A stretch of 38,040 nt of DNA from a virus (IMGVR_UViG_3300018954_000017:66216-104255); one strand, 5' to 3'; positions 12,120 to 35,522 are shown, numbered from the stretch's first letter. Translations and numbers: made by a program. Notes: generated from the letters alone by a model not told the origin.

Positions 12120-12785
12120 TCAACTGATTGCTTTGGCTTGCCAATAGGCTTCAGGTAGACCACGCATCATGTTTTCGTGACGAGCAGCGGCATCAACAAA
12201 CTTTGACATCCTGTTGAGTAGCGCGGACATATAAAGGATGTTTTGACCAAGTTCAACAATATCCTCTGGACGATCTACGAACCAGTCATAGATATTGCGA
12301 ATTACTCGATCATGATACATCCAGCCAACATATTCAGTCTCAAGTTTACGAATTAATTCATTGAGGTGATAGAGGCACCAGACCTCATAATTCTTTACAC
12401 TATGAACAAAATCTGGCGCATTCGGCAGTTCGCTTTTGTATGCGATTGTTTTTTCTGCCAATTCATCAATGTAGTCTTGTGAAGGAACATTTTTGGGTGA
12501 ATCGCCTAGATAATGAGCAAACCCGCTATAGCAAGCCATTGTCATCTCAATGATCTTTAGCTGCTCGTGTAATCCTTCGGTGACAAAGGTCAATTGTTCA
12601 ATGTCTAAGATTTTGTTGAGAAACATCCGGGCTTCTTCGGCACTGTGGTAGACCCGACAGATTGAACCATCTTTACGATCTTCAATCTTAGTCTTGATAC
12701 GATCTCCCTCGCGCACACTCATGTAGTTGGTGTAGCCGCGATCACCAGTACCAGGATGGTATTTTGTATGAAGTCTACTTGTCAT
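12120..12785 (-). CDS. divergent PduO-type ATP:cob(I)alamin adenosyltransferase-like protein
   Basis: N-terminal GTGDRGYT (PduO TGDxGxT) and C-terminal LNRMSKFVDAAAR (PduO LNRLSD..AR). Coupled to the B12-dependent nrdJ. Confidence 0.65.
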   Translation of the reverse strand: MTSRLHTKYHPGTGDRGYTNYMSVREGDRIKTKIEDRKDGSICRVYHSAEEARMFLNKILDIEQLTFVTEGLHEQLKIIEMTMACYSGFAHYLGDSPKNVPSQDYIDELAEKTIAYKSELPNAPDFVHSVKNYEVWCLYHLNELIRKLETEYVGWMYHDRVIRNIYDWFVDRPEDIVELGQNILYMSALLNRMSKFVDAAARHENMMRGLPEAYWQAKAIS

Positions 12786-15700
12786 TACTTAGCCTCCGGC
12801 ATCATGCATTTATCTGAATCGCATCCGACAACACCCTGATCTTTGTTCCACCCCCGATCGTACTTCTCAAGTAGTCCCTGAAAATCTTCCGATTGACGAC
12901 GGCTCAACACTTGCCGCTGTAGTTTATCGTAGCGTTCTTTAGAGATTGGCTCGAATGGTAAGCGAGGGTAGGTTTCGTTAGCATCAAATCGAGCGAGTAG
13001 GGCACAGCTGATGTAGCCTTCGTCATCCGCAATTGCATTGTAAATAAGATTGCCAACAGTTTCAATTTCGTGCTCTCGTAACTCAATTGTGGCACTCACG
13101 TTATGACCTGCATAATACTTCTGAACTTGCATGTAAAAGGAAAATTGAGCCTCTGCACTGAACTTACTAATGTCAATCTGATCCGCCCCCGGTAAATTAG
13201 CCCAAGATACCTCAACCGGAATCTCCACCAGCCACTCGGTTACCCGTGGGTCAAACGGGTCATCTAACAATCGCCCTTCGTCATCCTTGCAAGATTGCGA
13301 AGGTAGCACAGAATAGCCGTAGTCCATACAAGCGAGCGCTACAGGGTCATGAGAAGTGAATGTTATGCGACGGATGTACCGTTGCGCCTTGGGCGGGTGC
13401 CAGCCTGCCGAAGCGCCTGTAAGAAGACTTTTGGTATTGTGAGATTTAATCGCTCCTTGCCAATACCAGGAATCATCATCGTCAACTCCTTCAACAGCAA
13501 CATCATAGCTATAATCTGGGACACTTTCAAATTCAATTTTTTCAACTTGATATGGGTTGAATTTGAATTGACGTTTGGGATACGGAATAGGATATTTAGC
13601 CGCTTTTACACTCATCTGATTTAATTTTTCAATGGATTCCCATTCAGAGGTCATACGGCTTAAATTCAAAACCCACATAGAGCAAGTTAATTGAAAGTTT
13701 TCGCCTTTAGTCTCGTGATTAATTGAAAAACTTAACCCTACTGACTCGCCAATTTGCTGAAGATTACGCAGGAAGTTTTCACTAGCGCTTGTTATTCTAA
13801 CGCAGCCTCTTTCTTCTATTGCACCATCAGAATCAATCATACCACTAAAAAAAGCCAATATACTATTTCGAGAAGATTGCCTCAAAGCTTTTGGGATACG
13901 ATCAAGATAAGCACTTTTAACGGACTTACCTAATGAATGATATTCCATCCAAGCAAATAGCGGCTGACTAGCAAAGCAGAGTTCAGATCGACCACCACGA
14001 CTGTCTGGGTGCAATGTGCCTTTCAATCCGAATAAAGACTCTCCAATCTGACTTAATTTTTGGAGAATATTTTCGTTTCCGCTACAAAAACGAACTCGAT
14101 GTTTTCCGAGACTCATTGAACCGTCACCATAAAGCATTCCTAAAAAATAAGCAAGTTCAGGGCTTACGTTTTTAGGAGTGTTTATTTTATTTGCTGAACG
14201 ACCAAATTTGGATTGTTTTTCCGTGTTAAATGGTTTATCGGAAAAAGAGAATTCGGTTTCATTTCGGTATGTACCTAATTTAAAATCTAACTGCATTCCT
14301 GGAATCATTTCCGAGGCAAACACCCAGTCTCCCTGCACAGATAGCCTGTGATTAGGGGTCATTCTTAGGACTCGTCCGTTTGCTAAGGTTATCTTGACAA
14401 GTTTTAAAGGTTGGTTGGCTATACCTTGATTAACTTGAATTCCGCCACGAACACTAAGTTCTAAACATTTAAATTCTCCGCTTCCAGGATTCATTAATTC
14501 ATCAGCGTACAAAAGACCCTGATCAAAAATGCGAAGTGCGTTTTTATCCAGACATCCCGCAGGCTGAACAGTTGTGTAACGATTGGGGCGTTTGAGATTG
14601 TGCTTGTTGCAATAGTCGAAGAGTTTGACCCGGACGTATTCTTTCCAGTAGCTAAGATAACGACGTTCAAGATCGCAATATAAAAGACCTTCGTTAAAAT
14701 CGTTTTCCTCCGAATAAACCTCATCATCTTCATTTATACCCAGTAGCTTGGCAATCTTATCAATGCGACCGTAATCATCAGCGGGTATATACCACTTTTC
14801 AGGTCTTCCTTCAGCCCACCAACGCAACCAATCGCTACCAAATGCTTGCACAAAAAAGTCAAACAATCCAGTGAAAGACACACCCACAATTGGGTCAAGT
14901 TCGCGACTGATACGATAGCGCTCATCAGGAAACACATGATGCAGTAGAGCGGCTACAGACAGTGCTCCAGCTTCAAAGGCTAGCTTTTGTTGGGCGAGGT
15001 CGAGGGGATTGATTTGGTTGAGGTGGATTTCTGAAAGGTCACAGAGAAAATCTTTTCCGAGAATTTCTCCACAATTGTGAGCCACAAAACCTTCAACCAC
15101 TCCCCAGTGTTCTAGTGGCTCCGTGAAGTCGTAGACTTTTGCTGTACCTGCTGGATTCACCGATCGAACTTTTGGTGCATTGTTTGTTAAGTGACATGCT
15201 AATTTTTCTGTTTTGTACTGAATAGAAAATCCAATTTCATTGAAGAAAGTGCAACGATGCTCGTATTTTTGGATGTTGACATCATAGCTTTCTCGACACT
15301 GATATACACCATTTGCAAACTCAATCATTTTGGGTTTGTTTGTTGTATAGTAAGCGTCAATTCCAAAATCTTCACACAAACTGCCCAGTAACTGTTCGAC
15401 AAGAACAAAGGAAGTTGTTTTGAAGCTGATTCTGCCACCAGCAATGACAGATCCATTTGCTGAGTACAAACCGTTTAGGAATGCAGCTTTTTCACTCTTA
15501 TTCCAGTCAGAATAAGTTCCGGGTAATTTTCTTTCTGGTAATTGTACAAAATGAAAATCTAGGCTGTGCAACTGTTCATTAAAACCGTACAGATAAATAT
15601 GTCGATCTCCTTGCCAATTAAACTCGTAATTGTTGGCTTCAATTAAACTCAAAATATCTGTGTCATCTTTGCCAATGTTTACGACTACACCTAAACACCC

Positions 15701-17257
15701 TTTTGTGAATGCCGACTGCGAAAGTTGTCCGTCTCCTTGAATAAATCCCAACACTTTGAATTCAACATTATGTTCCGGATTCTTCAAGTAGGGCACCAAT
15801 TGCTTTTGCTTGCATTGGCTAGCCATGAACTGTCCTTCCGTTGTCAAAAATACATGGTCGGCAGTGCAGTAGATTCTCTCCTGAGTTGTTAAATTCAGGT
15901 AAACGATTCCCTTTTCACCAGAACACCAAACTTTTGATTGCGATACATTTCCGAACGCATTTATAATTAGTGGTTCTGTATCTTCGAGTTCCTCAAAAGT
16001 TTTGTACCCATCTACAGTCAACAAACGCATATCTCCCCGAAAACAAGGGTTTAATCCTACTCTAGACATCCGATGCTCTAGCTCTGCATCAGATAACTCT
16101 AGACCCTTTTGTTTGGCAAAAGCTTGTAAGTTGGTTTTTGCAATTTGCGGACTCAACTCATAGGCACGTAGGAAGATAGATTTGTTTCCATTATCCAACA
16201 GATCAGCATTAGCCCTCGCCACAGCTTCTCCAGCCCACTGAATCGCTCCCTCGCCGCTATAGAACTGCTTCCGTACAGCCTCAACGCACTCTTGTAACGA
16301 TGGCTTGTAATGGTATACACGGGTATGATTGCTCATGCGTAATGCGTCTCTTTCAGGGTCAATGCGCCAAGTTCCGTCAGCATCTTGCACCCAAAGATTC
16401 TCCTTCAGTAGCGGTGCATCTGAGTCAAACTGCCTCATACCAGCGTAACGGCGGACATTACCTGCCACAATAGTCAGCGCTGGTTCATCCAATAGCAGGC
16501 AGACACCCTCAGCATCCAACTGCCGACCAACGTAGCGATTGAGTACTGCGGCTACACGTTCGTAGAGGCGGGAGAGTTTGATGGGGTTAGCGACTCCTCC
16601 AAACCCTTTGATAGGTGTTCCGTCAGGGCGGACGGATGATATATCAACCGAGATGTTTACATGGTTAGAAGTCTCTCCATAAGTTAGTAAATCTTCAAAT
16701 GCTAGCTTTAGTACAGTCATCATTGAGTCAACCCACCCTTGTCGGGAATCTCCAACAACAACTTCAACTTCCAGTCCTATTTCTGTTCCATAGGCTTCAA
16801 CGTAAGTTTTATCCAACCGCACCGCATGCTGCCCTGGCTCACCAATGACCCGCACTTGCAAGCTATTGCGAACTGGAGGAAGCTGAGAGATATAACGGTC
16901 TTCTAGGACGGCACCTGTCCCACATCCCATCATGCCAAGAGACATCATTAGACCGAAGGATTCGAGATCGTTGATGTTTGTAGAGTTGCAGTTGTAAGCA
17001 GAGTAGAAGTTTTCAGGATTCTCAATCCACTCAGTTCCACCAACCCACATCCAGCGACCAGATGGCAGGGTAATTTTCTGTTCCATCATGTCGGCAACTA
17101 AGGCGAATTCATCAGCGTTAAACTTGCCAACTTTTGCAAGTCCTTGGCTAGTTCTTTCGGTTACGTCGGCATAGTTTTCGCGATTGCCTTCCACACGCCG
17201 ACTATAGGTACGATAGAAAGTTGGAGCACTTGTTGCTGCTGGAAATTCTTGGTTCAT
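12785..17257 (-). CDS. nrdJ: class II (AdoCbl-dependent) ribonucleotide reductase with two inteins
   Basis: FYRTYSR, LPSGRWMWVGG, YNC, GNVRR, NP|CGEI, TTVQPAG|TKSLL, and C-terminal GCDSDKC. Confidence 0.95.
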   Translation of the reverse strand: MNQEFPAATSAPTFYRTYSRRVEGNRENYADVTERTSQGLAKVGKFNADEFALVADMMEQKITLPSGRWMWVGGTEWIENPENFYSAYNCNSTNINDLESFGLMMSLGMMGCGTGAVLEDRYISQLPPVRNSLQVRVIGEPGQHAVRLDKTYVEAYGTEIGLEVEVVVGDSRQGWVDSMMTVLKLAFEDLLTYGETSNHVNISVDISSVRPDGTPIKGFGGVANPIKLSRLYERVAAVLNRYVGRQLDAEGVCLLLDEPALTIVAGNVRRYAGMRQFDSDAPLLKENLWVQDADGTWRIDPERDALRMSNHTRVYHYKPSLQECVEAVRKQFYSGEGAIQWAGEAVARANADLLDNGNKSIFLRAYELSPQIAKTNLQAFAKQKGLELSDAELEHRMSRVGLNPCFRGDMRLLTVDGYKTFEELEDTEPLIINAFGNVSQSKVWCSGEKGIVYLNLTTQERIYCTADHVFLTTEGQFMASQCKQKQLVPYLKNPEHNVEFKVLGFIQGDGQLSQSAFTKGCLGVVVNIGKDDTDILSLIEANNYEFNWQGDRHIYLYGFNEQLHSLDFHFVQLPERKLPGTYSDWNKSEKAAFLNGLYSANGSVIAGGRISFKTTSFVLVEQLLGSLCEDFGIDAYYTTNKPKMIEFANGVYQCRESYDVNIQKYEHRCTFFNEIGFSIQYKTEKLACHLTNNAPKVRSVNPAGTAKVYDFTEPLEHWGVVEGFVAHNCGEILGKDFLCDLSEIHLNQINPLDLAQQKLAFEAGALSVAALLHHVFPDERYRISRELDPIVGVSFTGLFDFFVQAFGSDWLRWWAEGRPEKWYIPADDYGRIDKIAKLLGINEDDEVYSEENDFNEGLLYCDLERRYLSYWKEYVRVKLFDYCNKHNLKRPNRYTTVQPAGCLDKNALRIFDQGLLYADELMNPGSGEFKCLELSVRGGIQVNQGIANQPLKLVKITLANGRVLRMTPNHRLSVQGDWVFASEMIPGMQLDFKLGTYRNETEFSFSDKPFNTEKQSKFGRSANKINTPKNVSPELAYFLGMLYGDGSMSLGKHRVRFCSGNENILQKLSQIGESLFGLKGTLHPDSRGGRSELCFASQPLFAWMEYHSLGKSVKSAYLDRIPKALRQSSRNSILAFFSGMIDSDGAIEERGCVRITSASENFLRNLQQIGESVGLSFSINHETKGENFQLTCSMWVLNLSRMTSEWESIEKLNQMSVKAAKYPIPYPKRQFKFNPYQVEKIEFESVPDYSYDVAVEGVDDDDSWYWQGAIKSHNTKSLLTGASAGWHPPKAQRYIRRITFTSHDPVALACMDYGYSVLPSQSCKDDEGRLLDDPFDPRVTEWLVEIPVEVSWANLPGADQIDISKFSAEAQFSFYMQVQKYYAGHNVSATIELREHEIETVGNLIYNAIADDEGYISCALLARFDANETYPRLPFEPISKERYDKLQRQVLSRRQSEDFQGLLEKYDRGWNKDQGVVGCDSDKCMMPEAK
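13436..14554 (-). mobile_element. nrdJ intein 2 with in-frame LAGLIDADG endonuclease (373 aa)
   Basis: CLDKNAL...MTPNH...FLGMLYGDG...FSGMIDSDG...SYDVAV...KSHN|T. Confidence 0.92.
15074..16045 (-). mobile_element. nrdJ intein 1 with in-frame LAGLIDADG endonuclease (324 aa)
   Basis: CFRGDM...CTADH...LGFIQGDG...FLNGLYSANG...VYDFT...AHN|C, immediately before the catalytic Cys of NPCGE. Confidence 0.92.
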
Positions 17258-24055: not shown

Positions 24056-24556
24056 GTGGGATTGGGTGGTCGGCAGGTTGATGTGGCTTCACGGGGCTTG
24101 TGGGCGAGTATGGTCGGCTGGCGAAATTGGCGGCGGCGAAATCGTATTTAAAAGGTTGACCCTATACCTATATCAAAGACGGGTAGTTTAAGTTCTTATC
24201 TTCGTTCAATATCACTAGCCCGTTATCTATATCTCCAAATTCGATGATGGTAAGTAAGGTAAGGCTTTGCCTTGTGAGCAATAGCGAACAAAACCTACAT
24301 CTTTCTGCGTAGGCGTGAGCAAGAACGAGTCTATTGAGCGACGGAGACGGGCTAACCTCGTAACCTTAGTGAAGAGGTTAGCCCAAGCGACCGAGCGCGT
24401 GATCTACGAGAAATCTTTCTTCAATCTGCCCAACTCGCCCTGTTCGAGCGTTTACGCGAGATAGTTAGATCTTATTTTATGTAATGTACTCTATGTATAT
24501 AAGTAAATTGGCTTTCCCGATTTACAGTAAATCGACTTTTCCTATTTACAGTAAAT
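24056..24556 (-). repeat. origin-like repeat module, copy A (inverted relative to 35053-35522; homologous to ~1505-1795)
   Basis: Reverse complement is near-identical to ~35071-35340 and similar beyond. Carries 24-bp iterons, an AT-rich tract and hairpins. Confidence 0.9.
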
Positions 24557-24801
24557 GCCGCTCTGATACTAGGTTTCGGCATTTTCAACCCTCAAAGTTC
24601 GGTTGAGTACACTTCCAATAGGTAGCTATAGCGTTACGATAGGTGCATTGGTTTTGTGGGATTTGCCATGAGACGGAACTACTGCGGTTCAGTAATAACG
24701 AGAAGCGAGTGTGACATTAAAAAAATCCCGCTCCCGTAGATTTCAATGAATCAGCGATGAAACAAAGAGAACCTACATACTAAACTCACCACTACACTAA
24801 A

Positions 24802-24833
24802 TACCCCGGTATCCAAGTGAGGACGCCGGGGTT
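24802..24833 (-). terminator. hairpin terminator downstream of the TROVE gene
   Basis: ACCCCGGTATCC-aagtga-GGACGCCGGGGT; the mismatches become G-U pairs in the minus-strand RNA. Confidence 0.6.
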
Positions 24834-24856
24834 AAACTTTGGATGAGTTTAGTATG

Positions 24857-26446
24857 CTACAGTGTTCCTTCAGCAATCATTTGAATGACTTTAGGAGCAC
24901 TAGGATCAAAGCCAGCGATATCGTAGCTCAGAGGATCACTGGGGTCTACCTGAGTGATATTGTAAGGTGCTAGGGAGATATAAACTGCTTTGGCATTAGG
25001 GTTGATTTGCCGACGATATCTGTCAAGTGCTTGTGATGGGTGCTGATAGCCAGCGAAAGACTCATTGTCTGTCCAGGTACAGAAAACATCCACATGAATC
25101 TTGTTATTAGTTGCCCATTGGTACGCCAATGAAGCATCAGTTGAACCAAAGTTGTTCTTGCGGGTTTTGGCGACGGCATTAGTAAAGCTATCGCTTGCTG
25201 TAATGCCAAGGTCAACGAATTGGTGAGAAAAACCCCGAATGATATAGTTGCGTTCTGCCTTAGCCGTTGCAAGCGCCATTGTTGCTGCTACCTCACAGCA
25301 GGCAATATCGGCACCACCACTGACGGTTGAACTCATGCTGGCTGAGACATCAATTGCATGCATAAAAACCTTGCCCGTTGGCGCTTGAGTCTCAAACGAA
25401 AGGTTCAGAGCCTTGTCTAGAATGTCCACAATTCTTGGTACTGGAGTCCACGTCTTCTGCGAACGACCGAGACTGCCGCCGCTGGAGTAAGTCTTAAGTG
25501 CCTTTAGCACATCAATTGGATGAATTCGAGCGGATCGGAGGGTATCAGGATTGTTAAGTTTTTGTTCAACCAAATCCAGATTACCAATCTTGTCGAATCT
25601 CAACACTCCAATCTCTGTTAATGAACCTAGATTTCGCAGTAACGCTGTCATTGGCATGCTATTGAATAGCTCCTGCCAGACTTCGGGGGTCATTCTGGTA
25701 ATTCCAGAGCACATTTCGTGCGTAAGCCGACCTTGGCGAATTGCCTGTACTCCATCATCAGGGTTGCGCTTGAGATATTCAAACCACCAAAGTTGATGGA
25801 GTTCGGGGTCTACGTCATAAATACTTGGTAACTCATTCCAACCGTCAATAATCCAACTGAATAGATTCTGGTGATTGCCCGTTGCTTTGGGCTTGAACAA
25901 CCTCAATACATCTTTGTTACTGTACCCATTCCTTTGCTGGTACTTGAGCAATTGATAGGCTAATGCTTTAGGTTCTTTACTCAACCAACTTAACCCAGCT
26001 TCCTTAACTAGCCGCCCCATACCCCGTACCTGCTTGGTATATGACAGCCACTCATACAAATGAGAACCAGTCCGCACAACTTGTGGGAAAATTTCTTTAA
26101 ATGCCGTTTTAGCTTCTTTAGAGGCATCGGCACTCAATAGCACTAATGCGAATATTGGTGCACTATTGTTAATCGAATGTCCGTCAGAGGCATACAGGAT
26201 TTCTTCTGCAACCTTTCTAGGATCACGAGAAATGGCTTTTTTCACAACCTCTATGAACTCTCCCGTCAATTCTCGCTTTCCAGCATAGTATGTTGACTGA
26301 CTTGTTCCGATGAGCAGGCACCGACGCAACTGTTGCCAGACATCAGCTTCAAACGCCATTGCACCACTCCGACCGCGAATCATGGCTTTGTTGGGAATTG
26401 GTTCAGTTTGAGGGGTTGATTGATTGAAATAGAATGCGTAGTTCAT
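24857..26446 (-). CDS. Ro60 / TROVE-domain RNA-binding protein (Rsr-like) with C-terminal vWA domain
   Basis: TPQTEPIP, RRCLLIGT..TYY, YQLLKYQQRNGYSNKDVLRL, MPMTALLRNLG, RIHP, vWA DVSASM, TDNES, GFD. AGGAGA RBS. Confidence 0.95.
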   Translation of the reverse strand: MNYAFYFNQSTPQTEPIPNKAMIRGRSGAMAFEADVWQQLRRCLLIGTSQSTYYAGKRELTGEFIEVVKKAISRDPRKVAEEILYASDGHSINNSAPIFALVLLSADASKEAKTAFKEIFPQVVRTGSHLYEWLSYTKQVRGMGRLVKEAGLSWLSKEPKALAYQLLKYQQRNGYSNKDVLRLFKPKATGNHQNLFSWIIDGWNELPSIYDVDPELHQLWWFEYLKRNPDDGVQAIRQGRLTHEMCSGITRMTPEVWQELFNSMPMTALLRNLGSLTEIGVLRFDKIGNLDLVEQKLNNPDTLRSARIHPIDVLKALKTYSSGGSLGRSQKTWTPVPRIVDILDKALNLSFETQAPTGKVFMHAIDVSASMSSTVSGGADIACCEVAATMALATAKAERNYIIRGFSHQFVDLGITASDSFTNAVAKTRKNNFGSTDASLAYQWATNNKIHVDVFCTWTDNESFAGYQHPSQALDRYRRQINPNAKAVYISLAPYNITQVDPSDPLSYDIAGFDPSAPKVIQMIAEGTL

Positions 26447-26504
26447 AAATCTCTCCTATATATGACAAGTGGCGCACTCCATCCGAAGATAAAGTACGCC
26501 ACAA

Positions 26505-26632
26505 AGCCGAGAGCAGGACTCGAACCTGCATATCCCGCGTGGAAGGCGATAACCTCAAATCATTCGGCTCCGAGAGGAGCAAGTTGTAGACTCAAGATGT
26601 TTTAGGTGTCCTAACCATTAGACGATCTCGGC
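26505..26632 (-). tRNA. tRNA-Gly(TCC)-like gene with a 56-nt Y-RNA-like insert (26549-26604) in the anticodon stem
   Basis: GCCGAGA TC GTCT-AATGGTTA-GGAC A CC[insert]CGC CTTCCAC GCGGG ATAT GCAGG-TTCGAGT-CCTGC TCTCGGC T. A full cloverleaf once the insert is removed. Confidence 0.85.
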
Positions 26633-26635
26633 ATT

Positions 26636-26764
26636 TGGGACTGAGGACGGGACTCGAACCCGCAACCAGGGCATTATAAGTGCGATAATCTCATCAATTC
26701 AGCTCTTACAAGCAAGATATTAGACAAGAATTTTTACCTGCTCTGCCAATTGAGCTACCTCAGT
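26636..26764 (-). tRNA. tRNA-Ile(TAT)-like gene with encoded CCA and a 53-nt Y-RNA-like insert (26684-26736) in the anticodon stem
   Basis: ACTGAGG TA GCTC-AATTGGCA-GAGC A GG[insert]GCA CTTATAA TGCCC TGGTT GCGGG-TTCGAGT-CCCGT CCTCAGT C CCA. Confidence 0.85.
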
Positions 26765-26772
26765 CAAGTTTG

Positions 26773-26895
26773 GGCTGATGATAGGATTTGAACCTATAAC
26801 CCAAAACTACCTGATAACCTCCATCTGTCGGCTCTATTGAGCAAGGGGTTTGACGAAGATAATGTTTTTGTTCTACCAGATTGAACTACACCAGC
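26773..26895 (-). ncRNA. tRNA-like RNA whose anticodon loop is replaced by the Y-RNA-like insert
   Basis: GCTGGTG TA GTTC-AATCTGGTA-GAAC A AAAAC[insert]GTTTT GGGTT ATAGG-TTCAAAT-CCTAT CATCAGC C. No canonical anticodon loop. Confidence 0.8.
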
Positions 26896-26903
26896 CATGT
26901 GAG

Positions 26904-26970
26904 TAGGGCAAGAGAATGAAAGAAGATGTGGTTCCATAATTAAGTAGATAACCTCCTTTCCGCAGCCCTA
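26904..26970 (-). ncRNA. small free-standing Y-RNA-like hairpin
   Basis: TAGGGC TGCG GAAAGGAGGT TATCT...CAC ATCTTCTTTC ATTCTCTT GCCCTA. The ends pair, and it shares the GAGGTTATC, ATCTT and CTTGC motifs with the three tRNA inserts. Begins at the predicted transcription start. Confidence 0.7.
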
Positions 26971-26975
26971 TCCTG

Positions 26976-27004
26976 ATACTACTGCAATCTTACACATCTG
27001 TCAA
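26976..27004 (-). promoter_or_regulatory. strong sigma70-type promoter for the Y-RNA/tRNA/Ro60 operon
   Basis: TTGACA-gatgtgtaagattgcag (17 nt)-TAGTAT, with +1 predicted at about 26969-26970. Confidence 0.85.
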
Positions 27005-27011
27005 GCATTAG

Positions 27012-27203
27012 TTAGCATTTGGCTAACTTTTGCAGCAACGGATAGCCAAGAGCAAACACTTGCTCCATGAACTCCTGTTTGTTTAAGCCGAGCGTCAGTC
27101 GCATTTCTTCTATCTCATCCTTTTGATCTTCCGGAAGCCTGAAAGGGTATTGTGGGCGTTTCGCACGATAGTTCTTGTAGATTTCTGGGTTTCGTTTAGT
27201 CAT
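27012..27203 (-). CDS. small RHH-like DNA-binding protein
   Basis: QYPFRLPEDQKDEIEEM...LNKQEFM gives a beta-helix-helix pattern. Confidence 0.5.
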   Translation of the reverse strand: MTKRNPEIYKNYRAKRPQYPFRLPEDQKDEIEEMRLTLGLNKQEFMEQVFALGYPLLQKLAKC

Positions 27204-27206
27204 TAC

Positions 27207-28202
27207 CTAATCCTCTTTGAGTAAAAATTTGTTTGAAATTGCCTTGAATGAGATACGCTCACCGCCATCATCAGTTACAAAAACTACACCTTCGCGTTCT
27301 GTAGTGGGCTGTAGCTGGCTTTTGCCTTCTGCATAGGCGAGGATTTCTTCAATAGTATCCGGCAAGCTGAAGATGCTATTGAGTACCGGAACAAACTTTA
27401 GTCCATTCGCCTGAGTCCAGAGTTGAGCTTTAGTTATGTCTACATATTCTCCTTTGCTAATGTCGTAGATATTGAAGACACACAGTTCTGGTTGCTCCAC
27501 CTTGTATTTGTTGCCCTGGATGCCCGGAGCGACAATCTCACCTTGAATGGCTAAGTTCATTCCTTCCAAAAGTTCTTGTAAGTTATACCGTTTGGCAATC
27601 TTCCAATAAATTGAAGACTCGTCTTCATTCAGTTCCCAATTGCGGCTACAAACTCCAAATTGGTCGTTGTAATTAAAGGCTGTGAAAGAAGTTCCATCTA
27701 ATTTCTCAGTTACAGTCCAACTCCTTTGCTGCCATTGCGACAACATTGATGAAAGGTTTTGGATGCGTTCTTCATCAGTTTTAGGGATGAACGAAGGAAA
27801 CGTCCCACTAGCTGATGATGTACCAACAACGGGTAGTGTTACTTCATATTTCGTAATTCCTAGATCTTCCGTAACATCTTGCCCAATCTCTAGATTGCTA
27901 TTGAACGGCAAAGGAAGCACTAGTCCCTGCGATAGTTGCCCTCGCAACTTAATGGTCTTGATACGGAATCCTTCAGTCCCATCAGCCATCTTGCGATAGC
28001 AAGATTTGCGGAGAAACTCATATTCCGGCTTGATGGGCAGCAATGAGTCAATTTCGCAGTAAACCACAAGATTCCCTACCTGGTATTCATCCTTCTTCAC
28101 TACAGCTTGCCATCCGTCCACAATAGCTAGCTCTAGTGCGTCTGCGTTGGGTATCAGGCGGATTTCTGAGATTTGTCGGATTGTTGCTAATTTACGGGTC
28201 AT
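27207..28202 (-). CDS. RNA ligase, DRB0094 (Rnl5)/Rnl2-like family
   Basis: MTRKLATI..IPNADALE..WQAVV, YCEIDS, LRGQLSQGL, KTDEERIQN, motif I EKLDGTS, IQGE, REGVVF, FKAISNKFL. Confidence 0.93.
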   Translation of the reverse strand: MTRKLATIRQISEIRLIPNADALELAIVDGWQAVVKKDEYQVGNLVVYCEIDSLLPIKPEYEFLRKSCYRKMADGTEGFRIKTIKLRGQLSQGLVLPLPFNSNLEIGQDVTEDLGITKYEVTLPVVGTSSASGTFPSFIPKTDEERIQNLSSMLSQWQQRSWTVTEKLDGTSFTAFNYNDQFGVCSRNWELNEDESSIYWKIAKRYNLQELLEGMNLAIQGEIVAPGIQGNKYKVEQPELCVFNIYDISKGEYVDITKAQLWTQANGLKFVPVLNSIFSLPDTIEEILAYAEGKSQLQPTTEREGVVFVTDDGGERISFKAISNKFLLKED

Positions 28203-28348
28203 AATCCTCTCTCCTTTTTAAGTGCTTCTTGGATGATCCCAGCATACGTTAGCGACCAAGTGATTGCAATGGTATTCTCTTGCTCGTCTACAAGCTTGTA
28301 GTGTTCGCTTCGACGATCAAAATTTACCACAAAAATATCAACTTTCAT
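28199..28348 (-). CDS. 49-aa hypothetical protein coupling the helicase to the RNA ligase
   Basis: MKVDIFVVNFDRRSEHYKLV...ERGL*, with ATGA overlaps at both ends. Confidence 0.55.
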   Translation of the reverse strand: MKVDIFVVNFDRRSEHYKLVDEQENTIAITWSLTYAGIIQEALKKERGL

Positions 28349-31300
28349 GTCTCCCCCTCGTATCCCTCAAAGTACTCCAATTTCAGTCCAGCACACGGTA
28401 GCTGCATTAGCTTCTCTAGCTCAACAGGATCACGTTCTAACGGTACGAAATACATGGCAGCTTTTGACCGCGTTAGGGCTACGAATGTTGCATATATTTC
28501 CTGTTGGAACTGCCAATTTAACATTCCCATTCTGTAGTATGGTAACAGATTGATACCCACCACGTAAACTCTCTGAGATTCATCACCTTTTGCCGAGTGA
28601 ATGCTGCTGTAGATTACGTGTCTCGTCCGGTCTTCCTCTTCCACCGGGAATACCTCCTCAATCTTCTCTACAAACTCCTTCACTGACTCGGCAGATTGCC
28701 CTAGGAACTCGTAACAGTACTCTAGACACCGATAGCGGTCTTCAGTTGCATCAGCTTGCGTGAGCTGTCCAGCAAGCTTGTAGCGTTCAACGAGGTACTC
28801 CTTCTGTTCGAGCAGTTTAGAGTGAAAGTCACCCCACTTACAATTCTTACCAATCTGCTTTGCAAACCCGCCCATCTCTTTCGCAATGTCTCGTGCCCGG
28901 ACAACTCCCTCAACTCCATTGAAAAATTTGGCTTCGAGAAAAAGTTTGATGAGTGGTGCGACGAACCTGCACAACACTAAATCTCCCGGTTGTACAGATG
29001 ACTTGACTGTATCAGGATGCATTAGCTCACAGGTGCCGTCTATGGCATCCTGTCGGGCTTTCATTTGAGGACTGATAAGTGAGGCAAGAGCGACATGACT
29101 TTTGGGACAGCGCTGGGATTCTGAGAGTGGGAGAACTTTGGCGTTGAAGAGTTTAATGATGGTCTCCATTGCTGTAGGTAACGCTGCCATGTACCCTGAG
29201 ATAGATTGTTTTTCGTCGCCCACAAAAATACAACGGTATCCGACAAGTTCATACTTTTTGTAGAGCGATATAAAGGCACGGTTAGCATCCTGACAATTAT
29301 GGGACAAGATGCCGTTGCCGAAAAAGTTGTGGTTATCTTCTACGTCGATGCAGTAGACCCACTCTTCTTCAGTTTGATTTTTTGTTGAGTCAATATTCCT
29401 CCACATTTGCTGCTGCAAGTTTGTGGATAAACTCCAGCTTCTTTCTTGCAATTGTTGTGATATCGGTAGAGAGTACCGCAGATTGGGCAAGGACGCTTTT
29501 GTAAATGTTCTCGTTGCTGTTGGATTCTTAGTATACGACCACATTCCCTGCTGCACGTCTTGTACCAAACTTCCCCAGTTTTGATATCGAGACGACTCTG
29601 ATAGTCTTTGTTGCAGACCGGACATGAATATGTTTTTAGGGGATTTGTCGCTGAAGCTTTTCTCGCCGCCTTCTGGCAACTGCTGCTGCAATAGTAACGG
29701 GAGTAAGCTTGGGTTTTCGTACAGAGATACGTTTCGTGTTCCGTTCCACAGTGGTTGCAGGGTTTGGTGGTTTGAATTACAGACTGTTTGATCTTTAGTG
29801 TTTCCGGAGTGCACCCCGAATTTAGTTTGTAAGAAAGAGATGGATGGATATATGGTCTGATTAGTTGAAAAAACGCATCTCGTCCATGCGCTGAAAATGT
29901 CAGTATTCCTCCTTTGCTCGTTGGTGTTGCTTGAGAATTGCAACCCAAAGAAGTTAGGTATTCTGCTGCCAATGCAATTTCTTTCATCGAAAAAGCATAA
30001 GTTGAAATCTTTGCTTGACCGCTGAAACTCCCGTCGTCCATAAACCATACTGCCAAAGCCAACGGATTTAGTTGACTCAGAACCGCTTCTGTGATTTGTT
30101 TTTTCTGACCCGTTGGTTTGAACAGGTGATATATCTCTGTGAATAGTGGGTGAGAAATTGTCGCAAAACTCCGAACCACTCCACCAAACTCGGTTGGCAT
30201 TAATGGTGACAGACCTTTGTTCCCAACCCAACGATTCAGACTGTCGTGCTTCCACTGAAGATAATCTTGTTGTGCTACTCCATGTCTGAAGGATATCCGG
30301 GCATTCCCCATTTTGCCTTTCCACCTGCTGATTCCGAACGAAGCATCGCCAAGAAGCGACCCAATGATAATCGAACGCTCGGTCGTCGTTAGTTTGTCTG
30401 AAGGATTGTAGTTTTTGACCATCGATTTGAAGCAGTGAATGTTGTGGTTTTAATTGTCCTGCGTAGATGTATCCCTGCTCTTTCGTGTACACCGGATGAT
30501 TATCGGTAGCCTGTAGTCCACAAACGTTAACAATAGCTCGATTGTGTCGTTGAACTTTATACCATCCAGTAATTTTCTTAACTTCAATTTGTTGGCTAGA
30601 TGTATTGAAGCTCAAAATGTCTAATGATAGTTTATCTCGAACTATTTCGTCAATACGTTTGGTGCGACCGTCTGCAAGACTAACCAATGTGTCGCCCGTG
30701 ACGCACTCGTCAATCAGCAGATAACTCTTTTCCGCTTTTGGTGCCTGTGGATACAATTTTAATTTATGTGGCAACCAGACCATATCCGCATAATCGATTA
30801 CGTGGTCATATGCGCCCATTCGATAGCAGTCTTCCAGCAAGTCCATTGCAATTTTGACTCCCCACGCAGTTCCAGGTTTACCAAAAGGGAACCTGATCGC
30901 AAAGTAATTGACTACCCAATCCATTGAGTCAACATTGTCATCGGCTAAGTTCAATCGCGCAAAGTCAAGCAAACTCTTTAGCGACTCTTGCCATCTTTCG
31001 AGCAATAGCTCTGCCCTTTCGCTGTCTTCAGGCAACCTTGGTGGTGCAATTGGGTATCGGCGGCTTTTGTCAGCTATGACTTCTTTGAGACGATTTAGCC
31101 CCCATTGAGCTAACTTGTCAGCCTTGTGTTTGTCTACCTCCGGCATTTCTCCTTTGAACTTTCGGATAAGCAGAGCTTCGCCGCAACCGTGAGCTGTTGA
31201 AACATTTACACGTTTTGGTATTCTGGGATCTTGTTCAAATGCCAACTTGACAGATTTGTTGAACATCATTACGTTGATTTTTACGTTTGGAGGCAAAAGT

Positions 31301-35052: not shown

Positions 35053-35522
35053 ATTTCTAGTAAATGGGGAAAGTCGATTTACTGTAAATCGGGAAAGCCA
35101 ATTTACTTATATACATAGAGTACATTACATAAAATAAGATCTAACTATCTCGGCTAAAGCCTCGAACACAGCTAGTCGAACAGGTTGAAGAAAGATTTCT
35201 CGTAGATTACGCGCTCGGTCGCTTGGGCTTAACCTCTTCACTAAGGTTACGAGGTCAGCCCGTCTCCGTCGCTCAATAGACTCGTTCTTGCTCACGCCTA
35301 CGCAGAAAGATGTAGGTTTTGTTCGCTATCGCTCACAGCAAAGCTGACCTGACTTACTATCATCGAAAAAAGATCTTGAACACGGGCTAGTCGCTACGAA
35401 CGAAGATAAGAAATTAAACTTCCCGTGCAGAAGACGATGGATCTGTGTAGATCTTTAAATACGATTTCGCCCCGCAATTTTCGCCTTAGAACCGTGCCAA
35501 CCTCCAAATCACCCAATCCCAC
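35053..35522 (+). repeat. origin-like repeat module, copy B
   Basis: Inverted copy of 24056-24556. Shares CACTAAGGTTACG, CATCGAAAAA, GAACACGGGCTAG, CCCGTGCA and TAAATACGATTT with ~1545-1738. Confidence 0.9.

What the first reader, a model, noticed from the sequence alone, without database searches (positions are those of the whole stretch)
24857..28202. Phage Ro60 operon with tRNA genes that carry a Y-RNA-like arm grafted into the anticodon arm
Seen in sequence: one promoter (26976-27004) reads a small Y-like hairpin, then three tandem tRNA bodies, then Ro60/TROVE, and an RNA ligase gene lies just upstream. Each tRNA has an intact acceptor stem, D arm and T arm in normal order, plus a ~55-nt insert of the form (A/U)UCUUnnUC...CUUGCU(C)-loop-GAGC(C/U)GA...GA(U)nnGAG(G/A)UUAU. 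The halves covary within each unit: AUCUUGAGUC/GAUUUGAGGU, UCUUGUC/GAUGAGA and AUCUUCGUC/GAUGGAGGU. Established: bacterial Y RNAs are encoded next to Ro60, and YrlA RNAs are circularly permuted tRNA mimics with open ends in the Ro-binding stem (5' motif about GNCGAANG; the Gly unit has GCCGAAUG) and a closed acceptor stem. Inference: these RNAs have the opposite permutation, with a closed Ro stem and free tRNA ends, so they would be processable and possibly chargeable tRNA-Y RNA chimeras. They could tether Ro60 to translation machinery, act as decoys for host anticodon nucleases, or be substrates for ligase-mediated splicing or repair. I do not know of this architecture being described.
Basis: partly seen in the sequence, partly recalled or inferred. 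Interest (0 to 1): 0.95.

Follow-up and report, generated by a model that had tools for sequence, protein, structure and literature searches.

The report
tRNAs carrying a Ro60-binding arm
Just in front of the gene for the RNA-surveillance protein Ro60, this probable cyanophage (like 23 of 151 sampled cyanobacterial species) encodes tRNA-shaped RNAs with Ro60's docking hairpin built into the anticodon stem; I found no description of this layout of the known Y RNA partners, which leaves normal tRNA ends and usually a real anticodon loop exposed.

Summary
On the minus strand, a sigma-70-type promoter is followed by a small open Y-like hairpin, three tRNA-shaped units and then Ro60 (TROVE+vWA).

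Each unit carries a 53-56-nt insert that folds into a Y-RNA-type Ro60-binding helix closed by a tetraloop. In units 2 and 3 the insert lies between tRNA positions 28 and 29, so complete Ile(UAU)- and Gly(UCC)-type anticodon arms remain. Unit 1 has no anticodon loop.

A covariance model built without any window sequence finds exactly these three units (82-92 bits). Across 58 relatives from cyanobacteria and uncultured phages, 94% of pair cells form pairs, and all seven acceptor pairs covary within units. This rules out the permuted YrlA register.

In 151 cyanobacterial species, 23 carry such units. All 23 are among the 27 with Ro60; none of the 124 without Ro60 has one.

Anticodon positions 34-36 are the most variable part of the molecule.

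Best reading: these are Ro60 partner RNAs of the YrlA kind in native tRNA topology. The decoy or tether role is inferred. Excision of the insert as an intron is not excluded.

I found no description in the papers I could search. This scan has reported related Ro60-like systems with a different RNA handle and protein family on other phage DNA.

The parts
26976..27004 (-). Sigma-70-type promoter, TTGACA-17-TAGTAT. The predicted start lies about at the first base of the leader hairpin.
   Evidence: 10 of 12 consensus matches, and the only such site on this strand in 24700-28400.
26904..26970 (-). Open-ended Y-like leader hairpin. It holds the same two half-motifs as the inserts but in the opposite order, and has no tRNA body. 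The CGA core of the Ro motif is replaced by UGC.
   Evidence: MFE -20 kcal/mol, z = -2.85. Sequence read. A similar open hairpin precedes the unit in viral locus L041.
26773..26895 (-). Unit 1: tRNA-shaped RNA with a 7-bp acceptor stem, D and T arms. The Ro module (26808-26863) is flanked by AAAAC/GUUUU. There is no anticodon loop.
   Evidence: Rfam tRNA 49.5 bits with a 52-nt insert. R2 81.8 bits, E = 1.9e-18. Not recognised as a tRNA after in-silico removal of the insert.
26639..26764 (-). Unit 2: tRNA body with a 53-nt Ro module (26684-26736) between positions 28 and 29. It has an intact anticodon arm with loop CUUAUAA (UAU). C73 is followed by an encoded CCA (26638-26636).
   Evidence: R2 91.9 bits. 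ARAGORN calls it tRNA-Ile(tat) once the insert is removed in silico.
26505..26632 (-). Unit 3: tRNA-Gly(UCC)-like body with a 56-nt Ro module (26549-26604) between positions 28 and 29. The loop is CUUCCAC, position 73 is U, and the motif is GCCGAAUG.
   Evidence: R2 92.4 bits. tRNA-Gly(tcc) after in-silico removal. Aligns with genuine cyanobacterial tRNA-Gly(UCC). MFE fold recovers the cloverleaf plus module, z = -2.13.
26469..26502 (-). Perfect 15-bp hairpin with a UUCG loop, between unit 3 and the Ro60 ribosome-binding site.
   Evidence: Read from the sequence. Its role is unknown. The cyanobacterial loci have a Ro-helix mimic at this place instead.
24857..26446 (-). Ro60/Rsr gene, 529 aa.
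   Evidence: Pfam TROVE 6e-25 and vWA_Ro60 1e-42. NCBIfam Rsr full length, 1e-92. 59-64% identical to cyanobacterial Ro60. Groups with them at 100% support.
24804..24831 (-). Possible terminator hairpin after Ro60: a 6-bp GC stem followed by a weak U-run.
   Evidence: Read. The scan lists only a shorter 5-bp hairpin inside it (24817-24805). Weak evidence.
27012..27203 (-). 63-aa ribbon-helix-helix (CopG-type) protein, upstream of the promoter. A possible regulator.
   Evidence: Pfam RHH_1, E = 4e-4, just at the cut-off.
27207..28202 (-). ATP-dependent RNA ligase of the DraRnl/NgrRnl (Rnl5) type. It is a neighbour, not a conserved partner.
   Evidence: Pfam PHA02142 OB + RNA_ligase. PDB 5COT Naegleria RNA ligase, E = 1.6e-70 over the full length. 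TIGR02306 at 207 bits, above the cut-off of 151. No homologue in the 129 loci searched, L001-L129.

Best explanation
The three units are partner RNAs of Ro60, that is Y RNAs of the YrlA kind, built in the native tRNA order rather than the permuted one.

Proposed steps (all inferred):
1. One transcript runs from the promoter at 27004-26976 through the leader hairpin, the three units and the Ro60 mRNA.
2. Each unit has a 7-bp acceptor stem and D and T arms, so the ordinary tRNA end-processing enzymes (RNase P at the 5' end, the 3' trimming and CCA enzymes) should release it.
3. The 53-56-nt insert stays in the RNA. It folds into a roughly 10-bp stem, an internal loop and a bulged-C helix (UUGCYN / NRG[C]CGA) closed by a tetraloop. 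This reproduces the Ro60-binding helix of Y RNAs.
4. Ro60 docks on that helix.
5. The tRNA body plays the role of YrlA's tRNA-like effector module. Here it has a free acceptor end and, in units 2 and 3, a complete anticodon stem-loop, because the insert branches from the 5' strand of the anticodon stem between positions 28 and 29.

Most likely use (inference): the particle presents tRNA look-alikes to enzymes that read tRNA shape and anticodon, such as anticodon nucleases, tRNA-modifying toxins or synthetases. It would act as a decoy or as a tether that brings Ro60 to them. The neighbouring nick-sealing RNA ligase points to a role in tRNA damage and repair during infection.
For: Family membership. 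Model R2, which contains no window sequence, finds the three units at 82-92 bits.

Structure. In 58 relatives, 94.3% of pair cells pair, against 72.3% after shuffling and 38-51% when partners are slid. Paired fractions by helix: acceptor 98.5% (7 of 7 pairs compensatory), module stem 89.9%, Ro helix 92.0%, and anticodon stem either side of the insert 98.1% and 84.6%.

Register. Within-unit acceptor pairing is 98.2%, against 67.3% cross-unit.

Ro60 link.
- Units lie 40-800 nt upstream of Ro60 on the same strand in 10 of 10 cyanobacterial loci.
- 23 of 27 Ro60-positive species carry them and 0 of 124 Ro60-negative species do, p = 2e-23.
- In two large genomes, strong hits occur only at the Ro60 locus.
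- Units are adjacent to Ro60 in at least 8 viral loci.

Binding motif. The GNCGA core and its paired UUG are near-universal, matching the published GNCGAAN0-1G / CGAA motif.

Against a decoding role.
- Positions 34-36 have the highest entropy in the molecule, 1.76-1.90 bits. Close relatives differ at 2-6 of 7 loop positions but at no more than 14 of 118 elsewhere.
- Class-II anticodons (GUA, GCU, CAG, AGA) sit on class-I bodies.
- Some units, including unit 1, have no anticodon loop.
- Calothrix and Acaryochloris each keep an ordinary tRNA-Gly(UCC) elsewhere; Calothrix also has a Gly(UCC) unit at its Ro60 locus.
- Two phages carry an ordinary tRNA with the same anticodon as one of their units: L068 CAU, L097 AGA.

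Precedent. M. smegmatis YrlA is cut by RNase P and receives CCA. A decoy role for YrlA against an anticodon nuclease has been proposed.
Against: There are no expression, end-mapping or binding data.

Precise removal of the insert restores textbook tRNAs in 41 of 48 units. It would leave a nick inside a duplex, which is the known substrate type of the neighbouring Rnl5-type ligase. Excision therefore cannot be excluded.

The alignments used for pair counts were fitted to the model.

Unit 2 (CUGA) and the leader hairpin (UGC) depart from the CGA core.

The Gly(UCC) lineage keeps its anticodon and Gly-type acceptor features (G1:C72, C2:G71, U73). This would also fit a working tRNA.

Anticodon variability could reflect relaxed constraint rather than an arms race.
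Confidence: 0.72

Rival explanations
1. The inserts are a new kind of small tRNA intron. An endonuclease cuts at 28/29, a ligase seals the nicked anticodon stem, and working tRNA-Ile(UAU) and tRNA-Gly(UCC) result. The phage's Rnl5-type enzyme would be the ligase here. Ro60 would bind the intron only as a folding or processing helper.
For: In-silico removal gives ARAGORN-recognisable tRNAs in 41 of 48 units, with perfect 5-bp anticodon stems in units 2 and 3. The Gly units keep Gly-type acceptor features and resemble genuine tRNA-Gly(UCC). A nick-sealing RNA ligase lies next to the operon. This phage record has no other tRNA.
Against: No ligase homologue lies beside the 129 other loci searched, and none was seen among the neighbours of four cyanobacterial loci. 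Unit 1 and several relatives have no anticodon loop. Tyr, Ser and Leu anticodons sit on class-I bodies, and the anticodon changes between close relatives on a constant body. Calothrix, which has a Gly(UCC) unit, keeps an ordinary tRNA-Gly(UCC). Open YrlA-type relatives carry the same anticodon arm but cannot be spliced into a tRNA. The inserts are 53-56 nt, far shorter than group I introns, and no intron family was found by Rfam. No bacterial endonuclease for such a site is known.
Confidence: 0.13
2. This is an ordinary array of permuted YrlA RNAs. Each real RNA would run from the 3' half of one insert to the 5' half of the next, with a closed 'acceptor' stem formed across the spacer.
For: The Rfam YrlA model gives weak cross-unit matches: 23.3 and 15.0 bits in the window and 29-37 bits in L003 and L006. 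In some cyanobacterial arrays, neighbouring paralogues allow 6-7 of 7 cross-unit acceptor pairs. Published work predicts 'much longer' acceptor stems for cyanobacterial YrlAs.
Against: All these matches are far below the gathering score of 69. Cross-unit acceptor pairing is 67% against 98% within units, and only 3 of 7 in several phage arrays. Many loci have a single unit, so no cross-unit RNA is possible (L004, L007; most hits). Several units end in an encoded CCA.
Confidence: 0.04
3. These are decayed tRNA genes hit by a small repeated element, with no function of their own.
For: tRNA finders miss them. Some units have degenerate anticodon regions.
Against: The insertion site, linkers (an invariant UAU) and helices are conserved with compensatory changes across cyanobacteria and phages. 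Co-occurrence with Ro60 is strict. In two large genomes, strong hits occur only at the Ro60 locus.
Confidence: 0.02

Closest known systems
YrlA, the bacterial and phage Y RNA with a tRNA-like domain (Rfam RF02553; Chen et al. 2014, PMC4201824; Wang et al. 2018, bioRxiv 10.1101/312249)
   Same: Both are encoded beside Ro60/Rsr. Both have a Ro-binding helix with a GNCGA(A) core and a tRNA-like D arm, T arm and acceptor stem. Many phage relatives found here also share the GGUUAUC junction.
   Different: The topology is opposite. Here the RNA ends are the tRNA ends and a tetraloop closes the Ro stem. In YrlA the ends lie in the Ro stem and the acceptor stem is a closed loop. Units 2 and 3 also keep a full anticodon stem-loop, which YrlA is described as lacking. 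The Rfam model scores 15-23 bits against a gathering score of 69.
[quoted passage not shown] 2014)
   Same: It has a 7-bp acceptor stem, tRNA-type 5' and 3' ends with CCA, and is bound to Rsr.
   Different: It becomes two RNA pieces held together by pairing, because the Ro stem is also open. The units here would be a single chain. It also has no anticodon loop.
Metazoan Y RNAs and the Thermus phage phiLo Yrl1/Yrl2 RNAs (PMC12135203)
   Same: They have a bulged helix with a CGA(A) motif as the Ro60 docking site and are encoded upstream of Ro60 in the phage. The window's leader hairpin has this open, tRNA-free layout.
   Different: They have no tRNA body. Their 5' and 3' ends form the Ro stem.
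Dimeric-tRNA origin model for YrlA, and circularly permuted tRNA genes of algae and archaea (as discussed in 10.1101/312249)
   Same: Tandem arrays of the units contain, between neighbouring inserts, exactly the T arm-spacer-D arm order of YrlA. This makes them a plausible source of permuted forms.
   Different: The model assumed that the Ro stem arose from leftover arms of a tRNA dimer. Here the Ro stem already exists as an insert in a single tRNA.
Known tRNA introns: group I introns in cyanobacterial tRNA genes, and archaeal/eukaryal bulge-helix-bulge introns
   Same: Both are inserts in the anticodon arm whose exact removal restores a tRNA.
   Different: The inserts here are 53-56 nt, lie in the stem at 28/29, give no group I match in Rfam, and have no bulge-helix-bulge geometry by inspection. 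They carry a conserved protein-binding helix and travel with Ro60.
[quoted passage not shown]
   Same: It is a predicted tRNA-like RNA tied to RNA-repair genes and sometimes lies next to Rsr.
   Different: I could not read the paper, and no Ro-binding insert is mentioned for it. A Band_7-FHA gene lies beside Ro60 in only one locus here (L004).
Ro60-like (DUF2828) proteins with 'handle' RNAs noted earlier in this scan (e1-5677044 and others)
   Same: They are phage operons of small RNAs that mount tRNA-like parts and variable anticodon arms beside a Ro60-shaped protein.
   Different: The handle differs (stem plus ACAGCAA), the ends are open and the protein family is different. I did not test these here.

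Membership tests
YrlA (Rfam RF02553) | Encoded next to a Ro60/Rsr gene | tested here: met
   The units end 58 nt before the Ro60 start codon. The same arrangement is seen in 10 cyanobacterial loci and at least 8 viral loci.
YrlA (Rfam RF02553) | Ro60-binding helix with the GNCGAAN0-1G motif | tested here: met
   Unit 3 has GCCGAAUG. Units 1 (GCCGACAG) and 2 (GCUGAAUUG) are near matches. The strict motif occurs in 28 of 74 relatives and the GNCGA core in nearly all. The helix is 92% paired with covarying distal pairs.
YrlA (Rfam RF02553) | tRNA-like D arm, T arm and acceptor-type stem | tested here: met
YrlA (Rfam RF02553) | Permuted topology: RNA ends in the Ro stem, T arm 5' of the D arm, acceptor stem closed by a loop | tested here: not met
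   Within-unit acceptor pairing is 98% against 67% cross-unit. Single-unit loci exist. Some units end in an encoded CCA.
YrlA (Rfam RF02553) | Reaches the family's gathering score | tested here: not met
   23.3 and 15.0 bits against 69.
YrlA (Rfam RF02553) | Bound by Ro60 in cells | not testable with these tools
   Needs RIP or EMSA.
tRNA (Rfam RF00005) | Cloverleaf with a 7-bp acceptor stem and D and T arms with conserved loop bases | tested here: met
   Unit 1 scores 49.5 bits. All three units fit R2.
tRNA (Rfam RF00005) | Uninterrupted 5-bp anticodon stem with a 7-nt loop | tested here: not met
   The stem is interrupted at 28/29 by 53-56 nt in units 2 and 3, and unit 1 has no loop. ARAGORN finds 0 of 48 as they stand and 41 of 48 after in-silico removal.
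tRNA (Rfam RF00005) | Aminoacylation and decoding | not testable with these tools
   The Gly units keep G1:C72, C2:G71, U73 and C35 C36. Anticodons that do not match their bodies elsewhere argue against decoding in general.
Group I or bulge-helix-bulge tRNA introns | A group I core of over 200 nt, or a bulge-helix-bulge motif at the junctions | tested here: not met
   The inserts are 53-56 nt and Rfam reports no intron family. The consensus structure has 5-6-nt and 3-nt single-stranded linkers rather than a bulge-helix-bulge (by inspection).
Ro60/Rsr | TROVE (HEAT-repeat ring) plus a C-terminal vWA domain | tested here: met
   The score is below NCBIfam's strict equivalog cut-off (311 against 900 bits).
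Rnl5 RNA ligases (DraRnl / NgrRnl) | N-terminal OB domain followed by a nucleotidyltransferase domain, with full-length similarity to the solved member | tested here: met
   PHA02142 OB + RNA_ligase. 5COT, E = 1.6e-70. TIGR02306 above the cut-off.

The most novel reading that the evidence does not exclude
These RNAs are processed, CCA-ended and possibly aminoacylated tRNA-Y RNA hybrids. Their exposed, fast-changing anticodon loops would serve as anticodon-specific baits in conflicts over tRNA. Anticodon nucleases or tRNA-modifying toxins would bind them and so be captured, blocked or reported by the attached Ro60 particle. Phages would carry their own sets as counter-defence. They would also be the ancestral form from which permuted YrlA RNAs arose, through tandem arrays.
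Probability: 0.25. Interest if true: 0.9.

Novelty: new variant of a known kind. Interest (0 to 1): 0.72.

Why it matters
The role of bacterial Y RNAs' tRNA-like domain is still unknown. The published searches also found few Y RNAs in cyanobacteria.

The units described here would fill that gap. They appear to be the standard Ro60 neighbour in cyanobacteria and occur in at least 16 uncultured phage contigs.

They also show that the tRNA mimic can be a whole tRNA with free ends and a real, hypervariable anticodon loop. That makes several ideas directly testable in culturable strains such as Acaryochloris marina MBIC11017 or Calothrix parasitica NIES-267:
- whether the RNAs are charged;
- whether they act as decoys for anticodon nucleases;
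- whether they recruit tRNA-binding enzymes to Ro60.

Finally, they offer a concrete intermediate for how permuted Y RNAs could have evolved from tRNAs.

Tried and rejected
- Nucleotide search of 24500-28500 against cultured phage records: no match.
- Ro60-based search of viral contigs with exact peptide words: nothing confirmed. A DNA pattern worked instead.
- Plain YrlA reading: rejected on covariation and on single-unit loci.
- Rfam: no family other than tRNA reaches threshold.
- Conserved ligase partner: no homologue in any of the 129 loci searched. No RNA-repair gene among the neighbours of four cyanobacterial loci.
- End-healing kinase (AAA_33) or CCA-adding enzyme in the phage record: none found.
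- Three cultured actinophage Ro60 loci: only weak hits, at most 35 bits in the unannotated gap upstream of Ro60 in two of them, so no closed form there.
- First pattern for ordinary tRNA-Gly used a wrong gap length and missed it. Corrected.
- Papers not held, so not read: Burroughs and Aravind 2016; Sim and Wolin 2018; Sim et al. 2020; and the supplements of Chen et al. 2014. A description there cannot be excluded.

Full report
WHAT IS THERE

The window is the last 38 kb of a 104-kb IMG/VR virus record. It has a tail protein J homologue, thymidylate synthase, an intein-bearing protein with a B12-dependent ribonucleotide reductase domain, and DnaB-type and intein-bearing UvrD-like helicases. 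I read it as a phage, probably of a cyanobacterium.

On the minus strand the elements run in this order:
- a sigma-70-type promoter, TTGACA-17-TAGTAT, at 27004-26976;
- a 67-nt open hairpin, 26970-26904 (fold z = -2.85);
- three tRNA-shaped units at 26895-26773, 26764-26639 and 26632-26505;
- a perfect 15-bp hairpin with a UUCG loop, 26502-26469;
- a 529-aa Ro60, 26446-24857 (TROVE + vWA_Ro60; Rsr-like over its full length).

Upstream of the promoter lie a 63-aa RHH protein and a 331-aa RNA ligase. The ligase is a full-length relative of the Naegleria/Deinococcus Rnl5-type ligase (5COT, E = 1.6e-70; TIGR02306 above its cut-off).

ARAGORN sees no tRNA in the window. Rfam sees only unit 1, as a tRNA with a 52-nt insertion.

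ANATOMY OF THE UNITS

Each unit has a 7-bp acceptor stem, a D arm and a T arm in the normal tRNA order.

The 53-56-nt insert forms:
- a stem of about 10 bp;
- a small internal loop;
- a helix of the form UUGCYN / NRG[C]CGA with a bulged C, closed by a tetraloop (AAUA, GUAA, UCUC).

This matches the published Ro60 docking motif of bacterial Y RNAs, GNCGAAN0-1G, also described as CGAA. Unit 3 has it exactly (GCCGAAUG). Units 1 and 2 are near matches.

Another first-reader note (e1-5618141) pointed to position 28, and I checked it. In units 2 and 3 the insert lies between tRNA positions 28 and 29, in the 5' strand of the anticodon stem. It is flanked by a UAAAA(C) linker and a UUAU(C) linker. A complete anticodon arm follows:
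- unit 2: loop CUUAUAA, anticodon UAU;
- unit 3: loop CUUCCAC, anticodon UCC.

Unit 1 has no anticodon loop. Its module sits between AAAAC and GUUUU. Unit 2 is followed by an encoded CCA.

The leader hairpin has the same two half-motifs in the opposite order, with open ends. It reads UGC where the units have CGA.

IS IT MORE THAN CHANCE, AND IS IT CONSERVED?

Ro60 relatives of 59-63% identity lie in ten cyanobacterial genomes. All ten have one to four such units directly upstream of Ro60.

A DNA pattern covering the 3' half of the module plus the T arm hit more than 119 viral stretches. A Ro60 gene lies inside the fetched flank of 53 of these.

I built a covariance model (R1) and collected 48 and then 58 full units. 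They come from cyanobacteria and from at least 16 viral contigs.

A second model (R2) was built only from the 58 non-window sequences. In the 38-kb window it finds exactly the three units and nothing else: 92.4, 91.9 and 81.8 bits, E = 5e-21 to 2e-18.

On the 58 sequences, 94.3% of pair cells form pairs. The figure is 72.3% after shuffling and 38-51% when partners are slid. Paired fractions by helix:
- acceptor stem 98.5%, with compensatory changes at all seven pairs;
- module stem 89.9%;
- Ro helix 92.0%;
- the two anticodon-stem pairs outside the insert 98.1%;
- the three inside it 84.6%.

These alignments are fitted to the model, which favours the structure. The acceptor result does not depend on that.

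WHICH REGISTER?

Canonical YrlA is a permuted tRNA mimic: the ends lie in the Ro stem and the acceptor stem is closed. A tandem array could be read that way across neighbouring units, and Rfam's YrlA model does give weak cross-unit matches (15-37 bits against a gathering score of 69).

Direct counting settles the question:
- within-unit acceptor pairing: 98.2%;
- cross-unit pairing: 67.3%;
- random unit pairs: 51.4%.

Several phage arrays reach only 3 of 7 cross-unit pairs. Many loci hold a single unit, where no cross-unit RNA is possible.

In a few cyanobacterial arrays of close paralogues (L003, L006), both registers can pair. That may be why earlier work predicted cyanobacterial YrlAs with 'much longer' acceptor stems and found few of them.

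Both topologies exist among the viral hits. About 50 are open YrlA-type units, and 26 of 51 of those also carry an anticodon-like hairpin at the same junction.

LINK TO Ro60

In a sample of 151 cyanobacterial species:
- 23 have a strong unit and 27 have Ro60;
- all 23 are among the 27;
- none of the 124 species without Ro60 has a unit (Fisher p = 2e-23).

Nearly all units lie on the same contig and strand just upstream of Ro60.

In the two large genomes of Acaryochloris marina and Calothrix parasitica, strong hits occur only at the Ro60 locus.

The window's Ro60 groups with the cyanobacterial proteins at 100% support, as sister to the ten sampled. It lies far from 42 other viral Ro60s. The cassette is therefore of the cyanobacterial type. 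The direction of transfer is not resolved.

DECODING tRNA, INTRON OR Y RNA?

Removing the insert in silico makes 41 of 48 units recognisable to ARAGORN. None is recognised with the insert in place. The intron idea therefore deserves a hearing. A cut at 28/29 would also leave a nick in a duplex, which is the known substrate type of the neighbouring ligase family (my knowledge of Rnl5 enzymes).

The following points argue against it:
- The insert carries the conserved Ro60 site and travels strictly with Ro60.
- No ligase homologue lies beside any of the 129 loci searched, and none was seen among the neighbours of four cyanobacterial loci.
- Unit 1 and several relatives have no anticodon loop.
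- Positions 34-36 are the most variable in the whole molecule (1.76-1.90 bits), while the UAU linker is invariant.
- Close relatives differ at 2-6 of 7 loop positions but at no more than 14 of 118 positions elsewhere.
- Tyr, Ser and Leu anticodons sit on class-I bodies.
- Calothrix and Acaryochloris each keep an ordinary tRNA-Gly(UCC) elsewhere; Calothrix also has a Gly(UCC) unit at its Ro60 locus.
- Two jumbo-phage tRNA clusters hold both a unit and an ordinary tRNA with the same anticodon.

I therefore read the units as Ro60 partner RNAs that keep their insert. I put splicing at about 0.13.

HOW IT PROBABLY WORKS

Shown:
- the fold;
- the family;
- the link to Ro60.

Inferred:
1. One transcript is made from the promoter.
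2. The tRNA end-processing enzymes release each unit. This rests on the precedent of M. smegmatis YrlA, which RNase P cuts and which then receives CCA.
3. Ro60 binds the bulged helix.
4. The tRNA body is used as the effector module.

The units expose a tRNA elbow, an acceptor end and a variable anticodon loop while carrying a 60-kDa ring on the anticodon stem. The most economical role is as bait or decoy for enzymes that read tRNAs, or as a tether that brings Ro60 (and perhaps host PNPase) to them.

A decoy role against an anticodon nuclease has already been suggested for YrlA.

With the insert and Ro60 attached to the anticodon stem, use on the ribosome seems unlikely. This is inference.

NOVELTY

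The kind is known: Y RNAs with tRNA-like domains beside Ro60. The following were not described in any paper I could search:
- the native tRNA topology with a closed Ro stem;
- the defined 28/29 insertion site;
- the retained and hypervariable anticodon arm;
- the status as the usual Ro60 neighbour in cyanobacteria.

Two reviews, the Burroughs and Aravind paper and the 2014 supplements were not available to me.

This scan has reported related Ro60-like systems with 'handle' RNAs in other phages. Those use a different handle and a different protein family.

Noticed in passing
L001-L007, L009, L010: about 10-35 nt upstream of the Ro60 start (locus positions ~2960-2990): Nine of ten cyanobacterial Ro60 leaders carry a hairpin of the form UUGCCC-GCAA-GGG[C]CGG. 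It copies the bulged Ro-binding helix, and its 3' strand runs into the Shine-Dalgarno GGAG. This suggests that Ro60 could repress its own translation. The window has a plain 15-bp UUCG hairpin here instead.
   Followed up: partly
window 24179-24556 and 35053-35426: Inverted repeats of about 380 nt in three collinear segments (79-98% complementary) bracket about 10.5 kb. The bracketed segment holds the Ro60 operon, the RNA ligase, the intein-bearing helicase and a MazG-like gene. It may be a mobile or invertible cassette.
   Followed up: partly
L003 ~2455-2500, L004 ~2640-2690, L007 ~2755-2800: The Nostocales-type loci share a promoter, TTGACA-17-TACATT. It overlaps a palindrome, TACATTTGTA, ahead of the units. 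This is a candidate operator for a regulator.
   Followed up: no
viral loci such as L015, L024, L025: About half of the open, YrlA-type phage units (26 of 51) also carry a canonical anticodon-like hairpin (U33, purine 37) between GGUUAUC and the T arm. An anticodon arm on Y RNAs is therefore not limited to the closed form.
   Followed up: partly
L010 2440-2603 and 2635-2788; L002 2049-2213 and 2363-2532: Calothrix-type arrays include longer units. One has a class-II-like body with an extra arm after the module. Another has a second insertion of about 30 nt inside the T loop.
   Followed up: no
L003 1400-2137, L004 1399-2151, L007 1892-2638 (minus strand): A conserved 245-250-aa protein with no Pfam match in any of the three (and no NCBIfam match for the L004 copy, the only one searched) is transcribed divergently from the unit-Ro60 cassette.
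   Followed up: partly
L004 4701-5804 (minus strand): A Band_7 (SPFH) + FHA protein lies just downstream of Ro60 in Stigonema. This recalls the published Band-7/tRNA-like RNA link. It was seen in only one locus.
   Followed up: no
L097 (jumbo-phage tRNA cluster): This phage encodes ordinary tRNAs with A34 anticodons (Ser-aga, Ile-aat, Leu-aag) beside units with AUU and AGA loops. A34 in the units is therefore not itself a sign of decay.
   Followed up: no
window 12785-17257 (minus strand): A 1490-aa ORF has a B12-dependent ribonucleotide reductase insertion domain, an intein splicing domain and LAGLIDADG homing-endonuclease domains. It adds to the intein-rich replication genes of this phage.
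   Followed up: no
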